The position numbers and the translations under genes were made by a program. Positions 4,763 through 56,374 of a DNA stretch of 64,000 nt are shown here, in pieces. This DNA is from Nitrososphaerota archaeon (GTDB taxonomy: Archaea > Thermoproteota > Nitrososphaeria > Nitrososphaerales > Nitrosopumilaceae): contig JAGWFT010000001.1 of NCBI GenBank assembly GCA_028867755.1, positions 804,727 to 868,726 on the forward strand, given 5' to 3'. The notes under the pieces were generated by a model. It did no database searches. It was not told where the DNA came from and saw nothing but the letters and a program-made list of their open reading frames with translations. Position 1 is the stretch's first letter; each line of letters opens with the position of its first letter.

Positions 4763-5253
4763 ATTGAGATTATCTGTAGTTTGGAATTTGCTGTTATGTT
4801 AAATTTACTAACAAAACCTGCAGCCACCTCTAACACATATTTTGCCGGTTTGCCTCCCCCATTATCAACTGTGCATGTTGCAGTTTCAAGTGCTGATTGG
4901 CATGGTTGTACATATTTTGCAATGTGTACCACATTTCCATCGCTGTCAAACCAAATTACATCTAGAGGAAACTGCATATTTAACATCCATATGGGTATGA
5001 CTTGAGCATTATCCATGACAAAAATCATTCCTTGGTCGTACGGTAATTGATCTTGAAACATCAGTCCTCTAGTTCTCTGTGCATCAGTTTCTGCTATCTG
5101 GACATCTAGTGTTACGTTATCTATCTTCACAGTACCTTTTGGAAACTTGACCTCAGCAAGTTTGGAATCTGCAGGAATTGTTAATACTCCAACGATGCCA
5201 ATTATTACTGCTGTGATGGCTATTGGAATTAATACCTGGCCTCTTGTTGCCAC
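4759..5253 (-). CDS. DUF192 family membrane-anchored protein
   Basis: N-terminal TM; RTRGLMF, GMIFV, WMLNMQFPLDVIW, YVLEVAAG motifs. Confidence 0.9.
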   Translation of the reverse strand: MATRGQVLIPIAITAVIIGIVGVLTIPADSKLAEVKFPKGTVKIDNVTLDVQIAETDAQRTRGLMFQDQLPYDQGMIFVMDNAQVIPIWMLNMQFPLDVIWFDSDGNVVHIAKYVQPCQSALETATCTVDNGGGKPAKYVLEVAAGFVSKFNITANSKLQIISI

Positions 5254-5429
5254 AAGAGCATATTGACTACAACTAATTAAAAACTAATGGAAACCCCTGT
5301 TGTATGGAAAAACATGATAAATCTGCTAATTTGATTTATTTCTCACCTGACTGTGTTTATGATCAACAGCTGCTAAAAGTAGATGCTGCATCATTCTCAC
5401 AATGTGTCAAAAATAGATTGCAAATAATC

Positions 5430-5770
5430 GAAAGATCCATATGGATGTTTCACGGGAGACTAAGGCACCGTGCTTTTTTGTGAAGTTGTAAATATGCTTT
5501 CATTCCCTAAGATTGGGGTATCTTTTTTCTTTGAACCTCTGAATACTTTTTCACGGTCTCTAATTTTACCGTTTAATCTTTCCATCTTGTTTGATCTTCG
5601 GTTCTGTAAAAAAATTTAACAATAGAGGTTTTTTCTGCAAACTTGTTACCACAAGAAGTTCTGTATTGAACTTTTTCTTAGGTATAGGAACTGTGGTAGA
5701 AATTATGTTATCAGAAAATATACCTATTCCCCCCACTAGAATTTTTCATCCCTCGATAACCCGACAGAAC
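5430..5770 (-). mobile_element. degenerate IS relic, IS6-like (archaeal Zn-ribbon plus DDE type) transposase fragments
   Basis: Minus strand reads NKMERLNGKIRDREKVFRGSKKKDTPIL, then frameshifted GMKAY-YNFTKKHGAL (DDE C-terminus). An upstream KVQYRTSCGNKF is a decayed Zn ribbon. IS6-type terminus GGTTCTGT at 5770-5763. Confidence 0.7.
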
Positions 5771-7279: not shown

Positions 7280-8578
7280 ATGTCGGAGAGATCTTGCATT
7301 ATTAATAAACATAGAATTTTTACTGCATGTGTTGTAATGTTCGCCGCAGCAGCATTATTTGTTCCACTTATCTCATCTCATAATATGGCGTTTGCTCAAA
7401 CAGGAGGTATCAGTAGTCCAGCTGTAGTGAACGAACAAACCCAAGTAACACTTTCAGGTGTTAATTCCTTTACCCCTGTTGCAGGAAATACTCTTGTAAA
7501 ATATTATTGGCAACAGATGTTTGGCGACCCTGTCAGTTTTCTAAACGGGGGGCAAACCATAACATTTACAACACCATCAGTTTCAGCTGGCGATACTAAA
7601 TATCTGAGGTTTGCCTTGACGGTTACAGATAACCACGGTGCGACAAGTAGTACCGCATTTAATCTTCAAGTTGTACACACTAATCACCCTCCTACCGTTG
7701 TAACTCAACATGAGCTCATAGTGACTGAATCTTCTCAAGTAAGTTTAACGGGTACTGCAACAGATCCTGACAATGATGCACTGACATACCAATGGAAGCA
7801 AATTTCAGGAAGTGCTGTAACATTATCAGCAGCAGATCAACCTGTTGCTACATTTACTGCACCATCTGTTGGCTCGCAACCGTCTACGACTTTGCAGTTT
7901 ACACTCACAGCATATGACGGCCATGGCGGACAGGGTTCTGATTCAGAAACCGTTATAGTCATGAGTAATAACTATTACAACCAGCCTTCAATTCAATGTG
8001 GACCTGTCATTGGAGGAGCGCAAGGATCTCAAGTCACTTTGCCAGCAACTGTAAGCAATCCATCTAATACTCCACTGACCTATTCGTGGAAACAGATCTC
8101 TGGTTTACCATCTCAAATATCATCAGCAGGTACATTAAACCCATCAGTAACAATTCCTAATGGCCCTGATTCTTCTGAAATTGGATTTCTGTTGACCGTC
8201 TCTGCTGGTAAGACTGTGATTGGATCTTGTGACAGCTTTGTTTATACTCAACTAGGATATTCCTTGCCACCGATTGCTAATGCTGGTCCAGATAGAACTG
8301 TAAATGGAAATGATCAAGTAACATTAGACGGCTCTAAGAGTACTGGATACGGTTATCTGTCATATTCTTGGAGACAAGTTTCAGGAGTCCAGGTAACTCT
8401 ACTTAACACAAATTCGGCCACCCCACAATTTGTTGCACCGGATGTCCCAGTTGGCAGCACGGACACACTTGTCTTTGAACTTGGTGTAAGCAACGGATAT
8501 GGAAGAGGCGCAGACCAAGTTCAAATAACAGTCATTCATCCAAACGTTCCTCCGACTGCAGTAATTACAATGAAATAA
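7280..8578 (+). CDS. secreted PKD/K319L-like Ig repeat protein, four domains; paralog of 5818..7095
   Basis: Signal peptide ending AFA; same four-domain layout; PPIANAGPDRTV motif. Confidence 0.9.
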   Translation: MSERSCIINKHRIFTACVVMFAAAALFVPLISSHNMAFAQTGGISSPAVVNEQTQVTLSGVNSFTPVAGNTLVKYYWQQMFGDPVSFLNGGQTITFTTPSVSAGDTKYLRFALTVTDNHGATSSTAFNLQVVHTNHPPTVVTQHELIVTESSQVSLTGTATDPDNDALTYQWKQISGSAVTLSAADQPVATFTAPSVGSQPSTTLQFTLTAYDGHGGQGSDSETVIVMSNNYYNQPSIQCGPVIGGAQGSQVTLPATVSNPSNTPLTYSWKQISGLPSQISSAGTLNPSVTIPNGPDSSEIGFLLTVSAGKTVIGSCDSFVYTQLGYSLPPIANAGPDRTVNGNDQVTLDGSKSTGYGYLSYSWRQVSGVQVTLLNTNSATPQFVAPDVPVGSTDTLVFELGVSNGYGRGADQVQITVIHPNVPPTAVITMK

Positions 8579-51284: not shown

Positions 51285-53051
51285 TCAAAATTGTTTTTCG
51301 TCTTGTACCACTTTCTTTTGACTGTTATACATGGTGATAATCTCATCTACAGAAGTAGCATTTTCCGGAGTTTTTTCAAATCTAATCTTCCCAGTAAATT
51401 TAGGGAAACGTAAGGCAAGACCACTGCCCTTTCTTATCTTGTCTAAAGCTGTTTTGTGAATGGGACTCAATGTAATCTCAGAAGCTACTATCTCAATTAC
51501 GACCTCTGGCTCAAACCATACATCTGCTTCAAGGCCACTATCAATCCTAGGATCTTTCTTGACGATGATCTTGTCAGACAGTATTTGATAGAATTGATCT
51601 AAACTCTCATCTGTAAACCCCGTTCCAACTTTGCAAACACTGGGATATCCATCTGTATTTTCATCATACGCAGATAAGAGTAACGCCCCATATCGTCCAG
51701 TCCTTCTGCCTCGACCATAAAATGCCCCTATGACAACCAAATCTAGAGAATCTCCCAACTCATTTTTGTATTCACGTTTTAGCTTGAGCCAATTACTTGC
51801 TCTGGCACCAGCTCTGTACGGTGAGTCAAGTTGTTTTAGCATCAATCCCTCACAACCCGAGTTAATGGCATTTTCTAGAAAGTCTTCTACCTCGTCATCT
51901 GTTTTGATTAACATCATTGGCATAACTCTGGCAAAAGAATCCTCATTTATTGAACTTTCAAGGATGCGTCGCCGCTCTTTATACGACATATCTAAACAGC
52001 TTTTACCATCAACAAACATGATATCAAAGAAATTAACTGTGATGGGATACTCGTTTACTGCTTTTGCTATGTTGTATTTCCGCCTTCTGTGCATAAGCTC
52101 TTGAAATGGTAGAAACTCTCCAGTGTTTTCGTTTATTGCCACTGCCTCTGCCTCTAATATTATTTCGTTAGCCTTTATGGATTTTCCAATCTTCTCCACA
52201 ATATCTGGATAATAATTAGTGATGTTCTCAAGGCTCCTAGAATAAAGAATGATCTTATCTTTTTGCATGTGTACCTGAACTCGCTCTCCATCAAGTTTGT
52301 ATTCTGCTGCAAAATCTGCTTGTATTTTTTCACGAGCTTCTTGTGCATCCTTTACTCTCTCTGCAAGCATCGGACGGATAGGACTAAAGACAGATACCTG
52401 AAAATGCTTCAATGCCTCTATTCCATTTTTTGCTACATCTTCTGCCACTCTTCCTAAATCACTACAAACGTTGTACGCATGTTCTAACATAGGTCTATTT
52501 TCTTTTGAACCAGTAAAAGCAATTGATAATGCGTCAAGAATGGTATAATCTGCTACCCCTAACCGCAGATTAGATGTAATTATTTTTGCAATGAATCTCC
52601 CTTCTATGGGGCTAGCATCATTCAAGAGGCTGGAAATGTATTTCATTTTCATATTTTGAGACCTATTTCCCTTGAGTTCTGCTATCTTGAATAAAGTATC
52701 ATAGACTCTCTCTATTGTTATGTCTTCTTTGAGAAAAGTTGTTTGTGTTTTTTGTTCCAAGATGTTAGCAGTAGCATGACCAAAATCCCCTACTTTTTTG
52801 TACTCGTGTTCAATTTTCAATGCTGGAACTCCCGTTGATTTTGATAGTGCTCTAATTGCAATCTTCTCGGCAACTCCTATTTCTATTCCCTCATGTTCTG
52901 GTCTTAATTTTCCCTGCAGTAAATATGCCACTTTTGAAATTATTTCAGGAGGCGTGATCTTAAACAAATCAACTAGATGCTGAGTCAGTTCTAGTCGTTT
53001 AGTGGTGCCTTCCATGTATCCTAAAGTATCAGCAACTAACGAGAATTTCAT
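51285..53051 (-). CDS. lig: ATP-dependent DNA ligase
   Basis: EYKLDGERVQ, EGLMLK, WLKLK, ALRFP. Confidence 0.97.
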   Translation of the reverse strand: MKFSLVADTLGYMEGTTKRLELTQHLVDLFKITPPEIISKVAYLLQGKLRPEHEGIEIGVAEKIAIRALSKSTGVPALKIEHEYKKVGDFGHATANILEQKTQTTFLKEDITIERVYDTLFKIAELKGNRSQNMKMKYISSLLNDASPIEGRFIAKIITSNLRLGVADYTILDALSIAFTGSKENRPMLEHAYNVCSDLGRVAEDVAKNGIEALKHFQVSVFSPIRPMLAERVKDAQEAREKIQADFAAEYKLDGERVQVHMQKDKIILYSRSLENITNYYPDIVEKIGKSIKANEIILEAEAVAINENTGEFLPFQELMHRRRKYNIAKAVNEYPITVNFFDIMFVDGKSCLDMSYKERRRILESSINEDSFARVMPMMLIKTDDEVEDFLENAINSGCEGLMLKQLDSPYRAGARASNWLKLKREYKNELGDSLDLVVIGAFYGRGRRTGRYGALLLSAYDENTDGYPSVCKVGTGFTDESLDQFYQILSDKIIVKKDPRIDSGLEADVWFEPEVVIEIVASEITLSPIHKTALDKIRKGSGLALRFPKFTGKIRFEKTPENATSVDEIITMYNSQKKVVQDEKQF

Positions 53052-53088
53052 CTGACGATTTTTACAAACTGTAGAATAAAAGGTTGAG

Positions 53089-53379
53089 TTATTTGAGGTG
53101 TAGATGTGTTTTGATTTTTAATCGTATTTCAGGAGTTCTCTTCAAAACAGTATTATGAAAGTCTGAGGATTCTTCTAAATCCAGATATCTCTTGTTTCTC
53201 TGCAAAAATCCATCAAAGAAAACGCCGCAGATATATCCGATGTATATTCCATATGAGAAATCTTCAAGGTTGGATATTATTGACAGGGATCTGGCCTCTG
53301 ATAAGATCATCTTAGGATAATCCAGAGCGTATGTTATTACATCATTAAGATTTTTTTCCTCAATTACATCCAGGCCCAT
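53089..53379 (-). CDS. conserved hypothetical protein
   Basis: ORF co-oriented with lig; ATG 53379. Confidence 0.65.
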   Translation of the reverse strand: MGLDVIEEKNLNDVITYALDYPKMILSEARSLSIISNLEDFSYGIYIGYICGVFFDGFLQRNKRYLDLEESSDFHNTVLKRTPEIRLKIKTHLHLK

Positions 53380-53423
53380 GTGACAGCCCACCTTTAACTT
53401 GTATTTAGAATTTCTGAAATTCT

Positions 53424-53484
53424 GGTGCTGGGTAATTGGTGAGACCTTGTAGACAAAATTCTTTGCGTTTACCGTCGAGACCTA
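53424..53484 (+). repeat. left terminal inverted repeat
   Basis: GGTGCTGGGTAATTGGTGAGACCTTGTAGACAAAATTCT plus a 22-bp extension; 56/61 identical to the reverse complement of 55586-55646. Confidence 0.95.
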
Positions 53485-53589
53485 AAAAAATTAGATTTTT
53501 TAAAAGGTCAGATTTAGGAAATAAGAATCTACGTTGTGGTTCAGAATCCATAGATCACAACTTACAAAGATGGGTTTGAGGCGATTTTA

Positions 53590-53670
53590 ATGGATAATTT
53601 AGAAGACATTCTAATTATGACTGGAATAATTTTATCAGCACTTGGAATGTTGCCAGAACCTTTAACTTGA
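53590..53670 (+). CDS. possible 26-aa hydrophobic peptide inside the element
   Basis: MDNLEDILIMTGIILSALGMLPEPLT; may be a gene remnant or non-coding. Confidence 0.25.
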   Translation: MDNLEDILIMTGIILSALGMLPEPLT

Positions 53671-53692
53671 AGATGTTAGAGATCGATCAAGT

Positions 53693-55585
53693 TTGCTATC
53701 TTGTGAAAAAATTGCCGTTTTTGTGTGTTTTTCATTGTTATTAATGCCGTTAATCGTTTATGCAGACAATTACAGCAGTAAGGTTGGAAATCAACAGATC
53801 ACTATTGTAATCAGACCTAACAATACTATTGTCTCGAACATAACAAATAACACTGAAGAGGATAACCGACTGGAAAAGATAGCAGCAGAACTTTCTGAAA
53901 ACGAACGATTTTCATGGACTGAGGGGGATGTAATTATTGCATCTTCAACAATTTTTGCGTTTTTTACATTCAGTTCATTTCTAGTTATCAGATTCAAAAG
54001 CAAAAGGGTAGATGATTTACTAGATCTTATTGATACCATAATCACATCGATTCTATGTATACAAATCATACAGATAGGCATAATTATCATGATTTTGGCG
54101 GGTTGGTTCAAGGAAGGTGCATATGCATACTTGTTAGCTGCTACTGGGTTTTGCTTGATTTTAATTGCAGTTTCAATTCGACAAATAATTCATCTTGAAA
54201 ATAGAAGGGGCGAAAAAATCATCGAGGCAGATGCTACATACAAACAAGTTATGGATAAGATACTAGGATCTGAAAATGTAAAGCGTACCATAGAGAATAT
54301 CATAAATAAACCAATAACTGGGGTTAACAAACCATTTGTAGAACCTGAATTCCAAACATCATTGGATGACGATGATGACGATGAAGATGATGCGTTAGGA
54401 ATTGAAAAATTTTCTAAATTTGGTCAGGCTTCCAAAGCAGGATTAGGTGGAGAAATCATAGGACAGAAAGGACTTGGGAAGCTGTCTCTTCTACGCTTTG
54501 GCGAAAAAGTGAATTTTAGAACCAACAACGGTGAAATTGGCATGGATATAATAATGACTCCACAAGATTTTGAATACGATATAAAATCTGCAACTAAATT
54601 TTTAGATCATCAAGGAACACGCATAATAATACCTAGTCCAAAAGGTGTTCCCCCCGTTGACGATTTGGCAAATTATCTAAAGAAAGTTTTTGGTTTACGC
54701 ATTGCAAAAGGAACAGAGATCATTCTCAATGGGGTAAAACTAGAATCTAATTCTAAAATAGATCCTCAAGAAAAATTCTTGTTCAGGCTTTCTGGTGGTA
54801 AAGTAGATGTAACTGGAAACATGAAAGAAGATAAAAAAGGTCACGGAAATGCTGATCTTTACATAAGACATGTTCTTGTCACATCTCTTTTAGTAGACCC
54901 CGAAAGAAAGTTTTCTGGGTGGGTAAATTGTAATGAATTAATCCCTACAACTTCAAGAAACGATGTCGTTAGAGACAGTCATGGCGGGATATTTGATGAT
55001 TTTCTTGTCCATCTTAAAGATTATGTCCGTCGATTTCCAAAGGTTGAAGAGGAAATCACAAAAGATGAAGAATTGTTAGGTAATGAACTTAACAAAATGC
55101 TACGCAATTATCTAAGCGAGTTAAGGATTCTTCCTCAAGGAACTATTTTGATTGGACGAGGGAACGAAAATACCTTAGATAGACAAGATAAAACCAATAA
55201 GAAGGAAAAAATAATCAAGGACACACCTGAAGAAACGCCCGAATATGTCAAAATGCATACCTCACGAAAAACCAACAAACCTATCAAACGGACTGTTAAA
55301 ACCGATTATGGTGTTATGTGGGTAGATCAAAATATTGGAAATGAAAAAGAACCTATCTTTTTTGTAGAACCCAACATGGTTATTAGAAATAGAACAAATG
55401 ATATTTACAAATTCCTAGTGAAAAACAAAGCATCACTTGGTTCAAAACCAATAAGGGCATTTCCTTATCTTGCGAGAGTAGCTGTAAGTATGAACAAAGA
55501 ATCTCCGAAATGGAATCGTGAGCAGTTATTTCTTGAGATGGATAGGGCTATACGATATTTTCTAAAAAATAAAGGCGAACTTTAG
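53693..55585 (+). CDS. chimeric cargo ORF: signal peptide and 3-TM protein fused to an N-terminally truncated MORC/Hsp90-like GHKL ATPase
   Basis: Hydrophobic N-terminal ~170 aa; poly-Asp junction; EDDALGI...FGQASK...IGQKGLGKLSLL...GTRIII ATP-lid motifs. Confidence 0.75.
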   Translation: MLSCEKIAVFVCFSLLLMPLIVYADNYSSKVGNQQITIVIRPNNTIVSNITNNTEEDNRLEKIAAELSENERFSWTEGDVIIASSTIFAFFTFSSFLVIRFKSKRVDDLLDLIDTIITSILCIQIIQIGIIIMILAGWFKEGAYAYLLAATGFCLILIAVSIRQIIHLENRRGEKIIEADATYKQVMDKILGSENVKRTIENIINKPITGVNKPFVEPEFQTSLDDDDDDEDDALGIEKFSKFGQASKAGLGGEIIGQKGLGKLSLLRFGEKVNFRTNNGEIGMDIIMTPQDFEYDIKSATKFLDHQGTRIIIPSPKGVPPVDDLANYLKKVFGLRIAKGTEIILNGVKLESNSKIDPQEKFLFRLSGGKVDVTGNMKEDKKGHGNADLYIRHVLVTSLLVDPERKFSGWVNCNELIPTTSRNDVVRDSHGGIFDDFLVHLKDYVRRFPKVEEEITKDEELLGNELNKMLRNYLSELRILPQGTILIGRGNENTLDRQDKTNKKEKIIKDTPEETPEYVKMHTSRKTNKPIKRTVKTDYGVMWVDQNIGNEKEPIFFVEPNMVIRNRTNDIYKFLVKNKASLGSKPIRAFPYLARVAVSMNKESPKWNREQLFLEMDRAIRYFLKNKGEL

Positions 55586-55646
55586 TAGGTCTCGACAGTA
55601 AACAAGTAGAATTTTGTCTACAAGGTCTCACCAATTACCCAGCACC
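55586..55646 (-). repeat. right terminal inverted repeat
   Basis: Reverse complement of the left TIR; its inner edge abuts the cargo stop codon at 55585. Confidence 0.95.
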
Positions 55647-55660
55647 GAAATTCTTGTTCG

Positions 55661-55670
55661 TTTATAAATA
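55661..55670 (+). promoter_or_regulatory. TATA box of rps25e
   Basis: TTTATAAATA 22-31 nt upstream of ATG 55692, consistent with a leaderless or short-leader transcript. Confidence 0.6.
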
Positions 55671-55691
55671 GGAGGTAGAAAGATTCAGTCT

Positions 55692-56003
55692 ATGGGCGGA
55701 GCAAAGAAAAAATCCCCTGCACAAGCAGAAAAATCTCAGACTGCAGAGGCTGCAAAGAAAGATGGACCTTCAAAGAAAGACAAGAAAGAGCAGAAACAAA
55801 GAACAAACATTTCTGTAATTGTAGACGAAGGACAAGCTATGAGTTTTATAAAAAACTCCAAAGTTTTCACCGTTCAAGAACTGTCTAGGCAAACAAATGT
55901 CAAGGTGTCGGCTGCAAATGCATTTCTGTTAAACTTGTTAAAACAAGGAACAGTAAAGAGAATAGGTGGGTATAGCGGACATCACATCTATGTGCCGTCT
56001 TGA
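55692..56003 (+). CDS. rps25e: 30S ribosomal protein S25e
   Basis: MGGAKKK N-terminus; winged helix FTVQELSRQTNVKVSAA; GHHIY. Confidence 0.88.
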   Translation: MGGAKKKSPAQAEKSQTAEAAKKDGPSKKDKKEQKQRTNISVIVDEGQAMSFIKNSKVFTVQELSRQTNVKVSAANAFLLNLLKQGTVKRIGGYSGHHIYVPS

Positions 56004-56374
56004 AATATAGAAAAAACATCTCCAGGTTTAACCTCTTTTAGCATTTCAATGTTAGATGTTATTTTACCAACCAATGTCATGGGCTTTGCTGATGCAACAT
56101 CTTCTAAAAAAAAGCAAATTGAGCCATTTGATGCCATGAACCCAACTTCTCCTTTTTTGAACTGAGTTCTGAGTTTTTCGCCTCCTGCAGTAAGAGTTGT
56201 ATCCATAAAAGCAATAGAACTTCCCATCATGTGCGAGTTGCCCTCAAGTGGTAGACCTCTTAATATGGCGCCAACAGTTTTTGGTGCAAGATGACGTTTT
56301 AATTCAATTTTCATCTGCACCTTTCCTTTCAAATCTAATACCAGATCAATTTTGGATACAGATCCAGCACTCAT
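55988..56374 (-). CDS. cyclophilin-like fold protein
   Basis: HLAPKTVGAILRGLP, GEVGF...SICFF. Confidence 0.8.
   Translation of the reverse strand: MSAGSVSKIDLVLDLKGKVQMKIELKRHLAPKTVGAILRGLPLEGNSHMMGSSIAFMDTTLTAGGEKLRTQFKKGEVGFMASNGSICFFLEDVASAKPMTLVGKITSNIEMLKEVKPGDVFSIFQDGT

What the first reader, a model, noticed from the sequence alone, without database searches (positions are those of the whole stretch)
53416..55654. Transposase-less cargo transposon with perfect 39-bp TIRs and an 8-bp target duplication
Seen directly: GAAATTCT | GGTGCTGGGTAATTGGTGAGACCTTGTAGACAAAATTCT ... AGAATTTTGTCTACAAGGTCTCACCAATTACCCAGCACC | GAAATTCT. The repeats extend inward to 61 bp (56 identical), and each end carries GAGACCT twice, 36 bp apart, like paired transposase-binding subsites. 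GGnnnTG termini with an 8-bp TSD fit the IS1/IS6/IS1595 groups. The 2,223-bp interior has no intact transposase, only cargo, and the cargo stop codon (55583-55585) abuts the right repeat exactly. Perfect TIRs and an intact TSD imply a recent move in trans. This looks like a mobile insertion cassette or gene-shuttling system, which I do not know to be described in AOA.
Basis: partly seen in the sequence, partly recalled or inferred. Interest (0 to 1): 0.82.

Follow-up and report, generated by a model that had tools for sequence, protein, structure and literature searches.

The report
Transposase-less IS6-like cargo transposon in Nitrosotalea
This is a real 2.2-kb jumping-gene remnant without its own transposase, from an archaeal branch of the IS6 transposon group that I found no paper describing, and it sits at one exact spot in front of a ribosomal-protein promoter that relatives of this element have hit again and again in the genus.

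Summary
There are perfect 39-bp terminal inverted repeats (56/61 over 61 bp), each with two GAGACCT boxes 36 bp apart, and an 8-bp target duplication GAAATTCT. No transposase lies inside.

Relatives show the empty site. The same bipartite ends bound other elements in ammonia-oxidising archaea, each with an 8-bp duplication:
- Some encode a 368-377-aa transposase (SWIM zinc finger plus IS6/IS240-type DDE domain).
- Some carry only cargo: restriction-modification genes, or purD with ParB.
- One is an 81-bp miniature.

So the element is a non-autonomous, cassette-like member of an archaeal IS6-like family.

Its "cargo" is a mosaic. A nearly whole small membrane-protein gene is fused in frame to a MORC-like GHKL ATPase gene that lacks its first 62 codons, including the ATP-binding N box.

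The genome holds one copy of the ends and only transposase fragments, so the element is now stranded.

The insertion point is 6 bp upstream of the S25e TATA box, between two divergent promoters. It is occupied in 14 of 57 resolved Nitrosotalea genomes, by elements with different end subtypes. That points to a preferred target.

Earlier notes of this scan describe the same superfamily in Bathyarchaeia and Asgard archaea.

The parts
53416..53423 (.). Left copy of the 8-bp target-site duplication GAAATTCT.
   Evidence: Relatives carry this 8-mer once at the junction.
53424..53484 (+). Left terminal inverted repeat, 61 bp. The outer 39 bp are perfect. The outer box ends in GAGACCT (53441-53447) and the inner box in GAGACCT (53477-53483).
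   Evidence: The family consensus GG...TG.GTAA....TGAGACCT...(11)...TTCT...TGTTTAC...CGAGACCT comes from 22 ends.
53485..53692 (+). Subterminal leader. Positions 53533-53620 hold a short hairpin-like repeat (GTTGTG...CACAAC). The start of a 26-codon ORF lies at 53590-53670.
   Evidence: This stretch is 78% identical to the region just inside the left repeat of an autonomous, transposase-encoding element in a relative (G017:C9, an unpublished genome).
53693..54403 (+). 5' part of the chimeric ORF. It is a nearly whole gene of a rare family of roughly 220-280-aa proteins with a signal-peptide-like N-terminus and predicted membrane-spanning segments; its own stop codon is lost.
   Evidence: Homologues P0071-P0074 align to residues 1 to about 225. 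One homologue lies beside a 385-aa IS240-type transposase gene (L049).
54404..55585 (+). 3' part of the chimeric ORF: codons 63-456 plus the stop of a MORC-like GHKL (HATPase_c_3) ATPase gene. The N box and the first 62 codons are missing.
   Evidence: 93% nucleotide and 96% amino-acid identity to the full-length 456-aa gene P0002/L027, starting exactly at 54404. Atlas neighbours carry HATPase_c_3 and Morc6_S5. This is the only copy in the genome.
55586..55646 (-). Right terminal inverted repeat, 61 bp. The outer 39 bp (55608-55646) are perfect. GAGACCT boxes lie on the minus strand at 55623-55629 and 55587-55593.
55647..55654 (.). Right copy of the 8-bp target-site duplication GAAATTCT.
55661..55670 (+). 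TATA box (TTTATAAATA) of the S25e gene (55692-56003). It starts 6 bp beyond the duplication and is left intact.
   Evidence: The box is conserved in all relatives. S25e was identified by Pfam and NCBIfam.
53402..53409 (-). TATA-like box (TCTAAATA on the minus strand) of the divergent 100-aa gene (53089-53391). It lies 6 bp from the left copy of the duplication and is left intact.
   Evidence: Read directly. Its promoter function is inferred from position and conservation.

Best explanation
The stretch 53424-55646 is a non-autonomous, cassette-like derivative of an IS6-like transposon family of ammonia-oxidising archaea (Nitrosopumilales).

Autonomous members carry a transposase of about 370 aa: SWIM zinc finger, zinc ribbon and an IS6/IS240-type DDE core. 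They have 60-bp bipartite ends that start GGnnnTG and carry two (T/C)GAGACCT boxes 36 bp apart. These boxes are presumably two transposase-binding subsites per end. Insertion duplicates 8 bp of target.

The window's copy kept both ends and the subterminal leader. It has no transposase gene; whether its lineage ever carried one is inferred, not shown. Its interior is a mosaic of two passenger genes seen elsewhere beside related transposases. A small membrane-protein gene is fused in frame to a MORC-like GHKL ATPase gene that lacks its ATP-binding N-terminus.

The element was inserted by a transposase supplied in trans, or before a co-resident autonomous copy was lost. It landed in the 8-mer that lies between the divergent core promoters of a 100-aa gene and S25e. 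That position leaves both TATA boxes intact, and the family uses it repeatedly in this genus. Today the element is stranded, because the genome has only transposase fragments.

Shown: the anatomy, the empty site, family membership of the ends, the cognate transposase type, the chimeric cargo and the hot spot.
Inferred: mobilisation in trans, binding of the transposase to the boxes, origin by deletion and recombination, and target choice by the transposase.

Empty site:
- 16 relatives and 43 of 57 resolved genomes in the genus lack the element.

End family:
- A pattern taken from the ends hits 14 stretches among 185,579 species genomes, and 13 of them are ammonia-oxidising archaea.
- Complete elements have 8-bp duplications: L033 (restriction-modification), L034 (purD + ParB_N), L039 and the Nitrosotalea TC-S bin.228 element (transposase), L078 (about 960 bp with a transposase relic) and L035 (81 bp).

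Transposase:
- PF13610 plus SWIM.
- NCBIfam IS6 model at 121.8 bits over its full length.
- Only IS6-family hits in plasmids, at 25-29% identity.
- 5,700 relatives, some named 'IS6 family transposase' in cultured ammonia-oxidising archaea.
- GG at positions 1-2 and G at position 7 of the ends, as in IS6/IS26 (PMC6807381).

Cargo:
- The chimera is shown.
- The leader is homologous to an autonomous element.

Own genome:
- It has no intact transposase and no other copy of the ends.
Against: - No transposase that could have moved the element is present in this 99.95%-complete genome, so transposition within this lineage is not demonstrated.
- No other copy with the same end subtype was found anywhere. 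The nearest ends are 80% identical, and a metagenome scan gave only a chance hit. The cognate autonomous partner of this subtype is therefore unknown.
- The transposase scores just below NCBI's IS6 cutoff. Harmer and Hall (PMC6807381) argue that archaeal 'IS6' elements may not belong to IS6/IS26 proper.
- IS26-type elements move only through cointegrates. How a transposase-less unit with inverted ends would resolve is not known.
Confidence: 0.85

Rival explanations
1. The element did not transpose in this lineage. An allele of the left-gene/S25e spacer that was already occupied was imported from a related Nitrosotalea by homologous recombination of the flanks. The duplication and ends then date from an event in another genome.
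For: The genome has no intact transposase and only one copy of the ends. The same site is occupied in many congeners, so occupied alleles circulate in the genus.
Against: The flanks place the window with G005 and G017, as expected, and those genomes have empty sites. No genome with this end subtype and this cargo was found as a possible donor. The duplicated 8-mer matches the local variant of the site.
Confidence: 0.15
2. There was one ancient insertion in the ancestor of the genus. It was inherited vertically and lost precisely in most species. The shared site would then reflect common descent, not target preference.
For: One group of five species (G008, G427, G170, G011, G423) shares an orthologous decayed relic of about 310-345 bp. 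Most empty sites carry a tandem pair of similar 8-mers that looks like an excision footprint.
Against: Ends at this site in different genomes are only 60-75% alike. Each is closest to ends at other sites in other genomes: G016 to N. bavarica 90%, G004 to REEA83 86%, TC-S to TC-B4 88%, window to SAR51 80%. G016 is occupied while its sister G002, roughly 2% divergent in the flanks, is empty. The window and TC-S copies have near-perfect ends while their flanks are 15-25% diverged from relatives.
Confidence: 0.05
3. The unit is kept because it is useful. The in-frame membrane-anchored GHKL fusion has a new function, or the repeats act as a regulatory or insulating element between the two promoters, and mobility is irrelevant.
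For: The 630-codon fusion is open. Both core promoters are preserved. The site is occupied in a quarter of the genus.
Against: The ATPase lacks the N box that all full-length homologues conserve. An in-frame junction has a one-in-three chance. The contents at the site differ completely among species, so no common function is carried. Most occupants are decaying.
Confidence: 0.08
4. The structure is an invertible DNA switch or an assembly artefact produced by the inverted repeats.
For: Long inverted repeats can support inversion and can confuse assemblers.
Against: There is no recombinase in or near the unit. The flanking 8-bp direct repeat and the empty sites are signatures of transposition. 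The same architecture, with other contents, occurs in independent assemblies.
Confidence: 0.02

Closest known systems
IS6/IS26 family insertion sequences (IS26, IS257/IS431, IS6100, ISS1, IS1216)
   Same: The cognate transposases have an IS240-type DDE core. It aligns over the whole IS6 model and finds only IS6 transposases in plasmids. The target duplication is 8 bp. The ends start GG with G at position 7 (PMC6807381).
   Different: Classical members are 0.8-0.9 kb and have 14-20-bp repeats, a 220-250-aa transposase and no passenger genes (PMC7986276). Here the ends are about 60 bp and bipartite. The transposase has a 127-aa SWIM/zinc-ribbon extension. Elements are 2-4 kb with cargo. The window's copy has no transposase. 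Identity to bacterial IS6 transposases is only 25-29%.
Long clostridial IS6 clades with N-terminal zinc finger (clades h/i of Varani et al. 2021; clades VII/VIII of Harmer and Hall 2019) and ISDsp3, the only IS6 member listed with a passenger gene
   Same: The transposase has an N-terminal zinc-finger extension (340-450 aa). ISDsp3 carries one passenger gene inside a single pair of ends (PMC7986276).
   Different: Those are bacterial. No transposase-less cargo derivatives, no 60-bp two-box ends and no site preference are reported for them. I did not compare sequences with them directly.
Mobile insertion cassettes (MIC231 of Bacillus cereus, bounded by IS231 ends). This comparison rests on my own knowledge; the term was found in the library only for bacteria.
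   Same: IS-type inverted repeats flank passenger coding sequence with no transposase. There is a target duplication, and movement is presumed to depend on a cognate transposase in trans.
   Different: The IS family differs (IS4 versus IS6-like), as do the domain of life and the copy number (single copy here). No co-resident transposase is present. The passenger is a broken chimera rather than an intact adaptive gene.
MITEs
   Same: They are non-autonomous deletion derivatives that keep only the ends. The family has true miniatures, such as the 81-bp element with duplication AGTTACCT in L035.
   Different: At 2.2 kb with a 630-codon ORF, the window's element is too large and too coding to be called a MITE.
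Promoter-proximal targeting by eukaryotic retrotransposons (Ty1/Ty3 upstream of Pol III genes). This is a functional analogy from my own knowledge.
   Same: Repeated insertion at a fixed short distance upstream of a transcription start, which spares the gene.
   Different: The enzymes, the replication mode and the host domain are unrelated. Targeting here is inferred from site occupancy only.

Membership tests
IS6 / IS26 family (ISfinder sense) | The element encodes a DDE transposase of the IS6/IS240 type. | tested here: not met
   There is no transposase domain in any ORF of 53424-55646. The element can only be a non-autonomous derivative.
IS6 / IS26 family (ISfinder sense) | The cognate transposase of elements with the same ends belongs to IS6. 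| tested here: inconclusive
   PF13610 scores 57 bits against a cutoff of 27. NCBIfam NF033587 scores 121.8 bits against a cutoff of 125, over profile positions 1-201 of 202. Plasmid hits are all IS6 family, at 25-29% identity. Harmer and Hall (PMC6807381) question whether archaeal members belong.
IS6 / IS26 family (ISfinder sense) | 8-bp target-site duplication. | tested here: met
   The window has GAACTTCT's counterpart GAAATTCT. Seven other family insertions have 8-bp duplications: six are perfect, counting L033 where only 5 bases of the right copy are visible, and G367's matches 7 of 8.
IS6 / IS26 family (ISfinder sense) | Terminal repeats begin GG and have G at position 7. | tested here: met
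   The window's end starts GGTGCTG. The 80% consensus of 22 ends is GG...TG. The criterion comes from PMC6807381.
IS6 / IS26 family (ISfinder sense) | Compact IS (0.7-0.9 kb) with short 14-20-bp repeats and no passenger genes. | tested here: not met
   The element is 2,223 bp with 61-bp two-box ends and has a passenger ORF. Relatives are 2.5-4 kb with cargo.
IS6 / IS26 family (ISfinder sense) | Movement only through cointegrates (copy-in or targeted conservative). | not testable with these tools
   This needs mating-out or in vitro assays. A rearranged copy with an extra internal end and a truncated transposase gene in G367 is compatible with intramolecular events but proves nothing.
Mobile insertion cassette (MIC) | IS-type inverted repeats enclose coding sequence and no transposase. 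| tested here: met
Mobile insertion cassette (MIC) | Evidence of insertion: a target duplication plus an empty site in relatives. | tested here: met
Mobile insertion cassette (MIC) | A cognate transposase is available in trans in the same cell. | tested here: not met
   Only C-terminal fragments of the transposase are present in the genome, the longest 85 aa.
MITE | Small (a few hundred bp at most) and non-coding. | tested here: not met
   The element is 2,223 bp with a 630-codon ORF.
Composite or pseudo-compound transposon (IS26 type) | Cargo flanked by two complete IS copies. | tested here: not met
   Only 61-bp ends flank the interior. There are no IS bodies.

The most novel reading that the evidence does not exclude
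The family chooses its target. Its transposase, alone or by reading DNA bound or bent by the archaeal initiation factors, inserts at a fixed short distance upstream of TATA boxes.

In Nitrosotalea this makes the 8-mer between the divergent promoters of the 100-aa gene and S25e a recurrent safe harbour. It is occupied in 14 of 57 resolved genomes. Elements of at least five to eight different origins sit there, and several are nested or replaced.

That would be a promoter-targeting DNA transposon in archaea, and a natural gene-delivery site.
Probability: 0.4. Interest if true: 0.75.

Novelty: new variant of a known kind. Interest (0 to 1): 0.55.

Why it matters
Ammonia-oxidising archaea have small, tightly packed genomes and few known routes of gene exchange. 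This element shows that an IS6-like transposon group operates in them as a gene shuttle, in three forms:
- autonomous copies with passengers;
- transposase-less cassettes carrying restriction-modification, purine-synthesis or ATPase genes;
- miniatures.

I found no paper describing this group in archaea.

The repeated use of one exact spot in front of a ribosomal-protein promoter has two implications. It offers a testable case of target choice by an archaeal transposase. It also marks a candidate neutral landing site for genetic work in organisms that have no genetic tools.

The element itself is probably inert and its cargo is broken.

Tried and rejected
- Rfam scan of 52900-56100: no RNA family.
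- PADLOC and PDB sequence searches of the cargo: nothing.
- Viral contigs: no element with these ends.
- Metagenome scan with the window's end subtype: one hit, in a GC-rich bacterial contig, judged to be chance.
- A looser scan of the own genome for degenerate ends: only chance-level hits besides the two real ends.
- The idea that the region upstream of 54404 is a diverged GHKL N box: rejected, because it aligns with the tail of the membrane-protein family, and DNA identity falls from 93% to nothing at 54404.
- The idea that the GHKL gene is a core helper gene of the transposon: rejected, because close homologues occur without a transposase nearby (L028-L030). In L027 it is the last gene before a different type of end.
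- Hits of the end pattern in another family of the order (G246, G264, G295, G381): these are a conserved GC-rich coding stretch, not elements.
- N. bavarica's end (L038) was checked for the S25e site. It lies at a contig end next to a tandem repeat and is not at that site.
- TATA proximity test: 5 of 19 flanks have a 7/8 or better match to TTTAWAWA starting 13-16 nt from the end, against 1.7% of random positions. The offset window was chosen after seeing the S25e site, and survival of insertions in intergenic DNA confounds the test, so I treat it as suggestive only.
Full report
**1. Observation**

- GAAATTCT lies at 53416-53423 and again at 55647-55654.
- Between them, 53424-53462 and 55608-55646 are perfect 39-bp inverted repeats.
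- Similarity continues inward to 61 bp with five mismatches. One search reports an 82-nt arm at 84%. One search gives 91-92% over 60 bp.
- Each end carries GAGACCT twice, 36 bp apart.
- The 23-nt terminus occurs only at these two places in the window, with none expected in shuffles. It occurs only there in the whole 1.64-Mb, 99.95%-complete genome.
- The single long ORF (53693-55585) has no transposase domain. Its stop codon touches the inner edge of the right repeat.
- No RNA family matches the region.

**2. It is an insertion**

In 16 same-genus relatives the left flank (a 100-aa gene on the minus strand, next to DNA ligase) and the right flank (ribosomal protein S25e) are directly adjacent. 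The 8-mer is present once at the junction.

The insertion point lies between two divergent core promoters. The S25e TATA box TTTATAAATA starts 6 bp beyond the right copy of the duplication. A TATA-like TCTAAATA for the left gene lies 6 bp beyond the left copy. Both are intact.

Two of these 16 genomes (G010, G017) are unpublished. The other 14 give the same answer.

**3. The family**

A pattern built from the conserved inner box and the second GGTCT found 14 stretches among 185,579 species genomes. Thirteen of them are in ammonia-oxidising archaea: Nitrosotalea, Nitrosopumilus, Nitrosotenuis and unnamed Nitrosopumilales. This also shows that the window comes from a Nitrosotalea genome.

A fuzzy scan for both boxes defined complete elements, each with an 8-bp duplication:

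| Element | Size | Contents | Duplication |
|---|---|---|---|
| L033 | 4.0 kb | N6 methylase plus specificity subunit | CAGAAAGA |
| L034 | 2.5 kb | purD plus a ParB_N protein | TAAAATAA |
| L039 (Nitrosotenuis) | 3.1 kb | 375-aa transposase | TGTGAACG |
| Nitrosotalea TC-S bin.228 (L036/L041) | 3.9 kb | 368-aa transposase and four unknown ORFs | GAACTTCT |
| L078 | about 960 bp | relic of the transposase C-terminus | TTAAAAAA |
| L035 | 81 bp | nothing | AGTTACCT |

An 81-bp element cannot encode anything, so trans-mobilisation occurs in this family.

The 80% consensus of 22 ends is GG...TG.GTAA....TGAGACCT, then 11 variable bases, then TTCT...TGTTTAC...CGAGACCT.

**4. The transposase**

- The proteins combine a SWIM zinc finger, a zinc ribbon and PF13610 DDE_Tnp_IS240.
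- They align over the whole NCBIfam IS6 model at 121.8 bits, just under the cutoff of 125.
- In plasmids they find only IS6-family transposases such as ISS1 and IS1216, at 25-29% identity.
- There are about 5,700 relatives. They include proteins of cultured ammonia-oxidising archaea that NCBI names 'IS6 family transposase' or 'DDE-type integrase/transposase/recombinase'.
- GG at positions 1-2, G at position 7 and an 8-bp duplication are the IS6/IS26 hallmarks (PMC6807381, PMC7986276).

The differences from classical IS6 are the 60-bp two-box ends, the zinc-finger extension, the size and the passenger genes. ISfinder lists only one IS6 member with a passenger, ISDsp3 (PMC7986276). Harmer and Hall doubt that archaeal 'IS6' elements belong to the family proper, and they note that no experiments exist for them (PMC6807381).

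I found no paper describing SWIM-bearing IS6-like elements or mobile insertion cassettes in archaea. In the survey of thaumarchaeal mobile elements (PMC6563490), every text match to 'IS6' that was displayed was to IS605, IS607 or IS630. I did not read its figure or tables.

**5. The cargo is a mosaic**

- DNA identity to a full-length 456-aa GHKL (HATPase_c_3) gene is 93% and starts abruptly at 54404. It ends at the stop codon.
- At protein level, residues 237-630 equal residues 63-456 of that protein at 96% identity.
- All full-length homologues conserve an N box (REAISNALDE-like) and an EDWGEGI motif in the first 62 residues. These are missing here.
- Neighbours in the protein atlas are HATPase_c_3 proteins, some with a MORC S5 domain, many of them viral.
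- Residues 1 to about 225 are a nearly whole member of a rare family with a signal-peptide-like N-terminus and predicted membrane-spanning segments.

Both halves occur elsewhere beside related transposases. The membrane-protein gene lies about 500 bp from a 385-aa IS240-type gene in L049. The ATPase gene is the last gene before a different, roughly 62-bp end (…AATTACCAGAGCC) of a transposon with a SWIM-DDE transposase in L027.

The leader 53533-53620 is 78% identical to the stretch just inside the repeat of an autonomous element in G017:C9. That genome is unpublished, and this point rests on it alone.

I infer that the element arose by deletion and recombination among cargo-carrying relatives. 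The in-frame fusion may be accidental.

**6. State in this genome**

Only fragments of the transposase remain: 85 residues at C24:1124672, and shorter pieces at three other places, one of them in the window at 5493-5612. No second copy of the ends exists. The element is therefore stranded. Whether it jumped in this lineage or arrived by recombination of an occupied allele cannot be decided here.

**7. The site is a hot spot**

A scan of the 61 genomes of the genus with an empty-site query found the site in 59 of them:
- 43 have a continuous match, so the site is empty.
- 14 have the two flanks split by 105 bp to 3.9 kb.
- 2 are unresolved.

The occupants are as follows:
- The window.
- TC-S bin.228, an autonomous copy with perfect 60-bp ends.
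- G016: about 390 bp, a 95-aa ORF and a good right end.
- G425: about 380 bp, with a right end of the window's subtype.
- G004: about 1 kb, with two right ends nested about 100 bp apart.
- G422.
- A group of five species sharing one orthologous decayed relic (G008, G427, G170, G011, G423).
- G432, G449 and G424, whose inserts are too decayed or too short to assign with confidence.

On a tree of the flanks, occupied and empty genomes are interleaved. For example, G016 is occupied and its sister G002, about 2% divergent, is empty.

Ends at this site are only 60-75% alike between genomes. Each is closest to ends at other sites in other genomes. So several independent insertions hit the same 8-mer.

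Of the six Nitrosotalea insertion sites found without reference to the site (five stretches at four sites, plus the window), four are at this spot.

A TATA-like box starts 13-16 nt from the end at 5 of 19 flanks, against 1.7% of random positions. That test is post hoc and is confounded by survival of insertions in intergenic DNA.

Most empty sites already carry two similar tandem 8-mers (GAATTTCT GAAATTCT), while G010 (unpublished) has one. This could be an old footprint or a regulatory repeat. I cannot tell which.

Claims that rest partly on unpublished genomes:
- G011 as one of the 14 occupants.
- G440, which has the same coordinates as the public TC-S bin.228 record that I used.
- G441, which is unresolved.

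**8. Verdict**

The stretch is a transposase-less, cassette-like member of an archaeal IS6-like transposon family, with broken cargo, in a recurrent promoter-proximal site.

Earlier notes of this scan describe the same superfamily in Bathyarchaeia and Asgard genomes, including pile-ups upstream of promoters. I used them as a lead only.

Noticed in passing
window 4797-5621: A second, decayed IS6-like relic. It has 22-nt inverted repeats, one arm reading GGTTCTGTAAAAAAATTTAACA. These enclose a 164-aa ORF and a 40-residue fragment of the family transposase at 5493-5612 (55% identity).
   Followed up: partly
window 53406-53423 and the same place in relatives (alignment): The unoccupied target already holds two similar tandem 8-mers, GAATTTCT GAAATTCT. 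One relative (G010, unpublished) has a single copy. This looks like an old insertion-excision footprint, but it could be a regulatory repeat between the divergent promoters.
   Followed up: no
L035 3589-3669 (Nitrososphaerota MAG SAR51): An 81-bp miniature of the family. It consists of 15 bp of left terminus fused to a full 60-bp right end, flanked by a perfect 8-bp duplication AGTTACCT.
   Followed up: yes
L076 5835-8146 (G367:C27): An element with an extra internal left end at 7345, abutting a transposase gene truncated at residue 247. The outer ends have a 7/8 duplication (T/C)GATTTGG. It looks like the product of an intramolecular transposition or of a nested insertion.
   Followed up: partly
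L034 1043-3537 and L027 2021-3535: Purine-synthesis genes ride on these transposons. purD lies with a ParB_N gene between family ends in a Nitrosopumilus MAG. A purB copy lies between a SWIM-DDE transposase and the GHKL gene in L027, and it has no close DNA match in the window's genome.
   Followed up: no
L027 5376-5437 and L028/L029 6374-6431: A conserved stretch of about 60 bp ends in AATTACCAGAGCC and has two GTGGTAAGTT-like boxes. It seems to be the end of another subtype of IS6-like transposon. In L028/L029 it lies next to the ribosomal-protein operon (L6, S8, S14, L5, S4e).
   Followed up: partly
L032 and L034 (two Nitrosopumilus MAGs): Closely related ends sit at the same chromosomal site in two Nitrosopumilus species; the flanks are homologous. 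This is either vertical inheritance or a second recurrent site.
   Followed up: no
L031 (contig assigned to an Anoxychlamydiales MAG): A typical family end with AT-rich flanks lies on a contig binned with a chlamydial genome. This is probably a mis-binned archaeal contig rather than transfer to bacteria.
   Followed up: no
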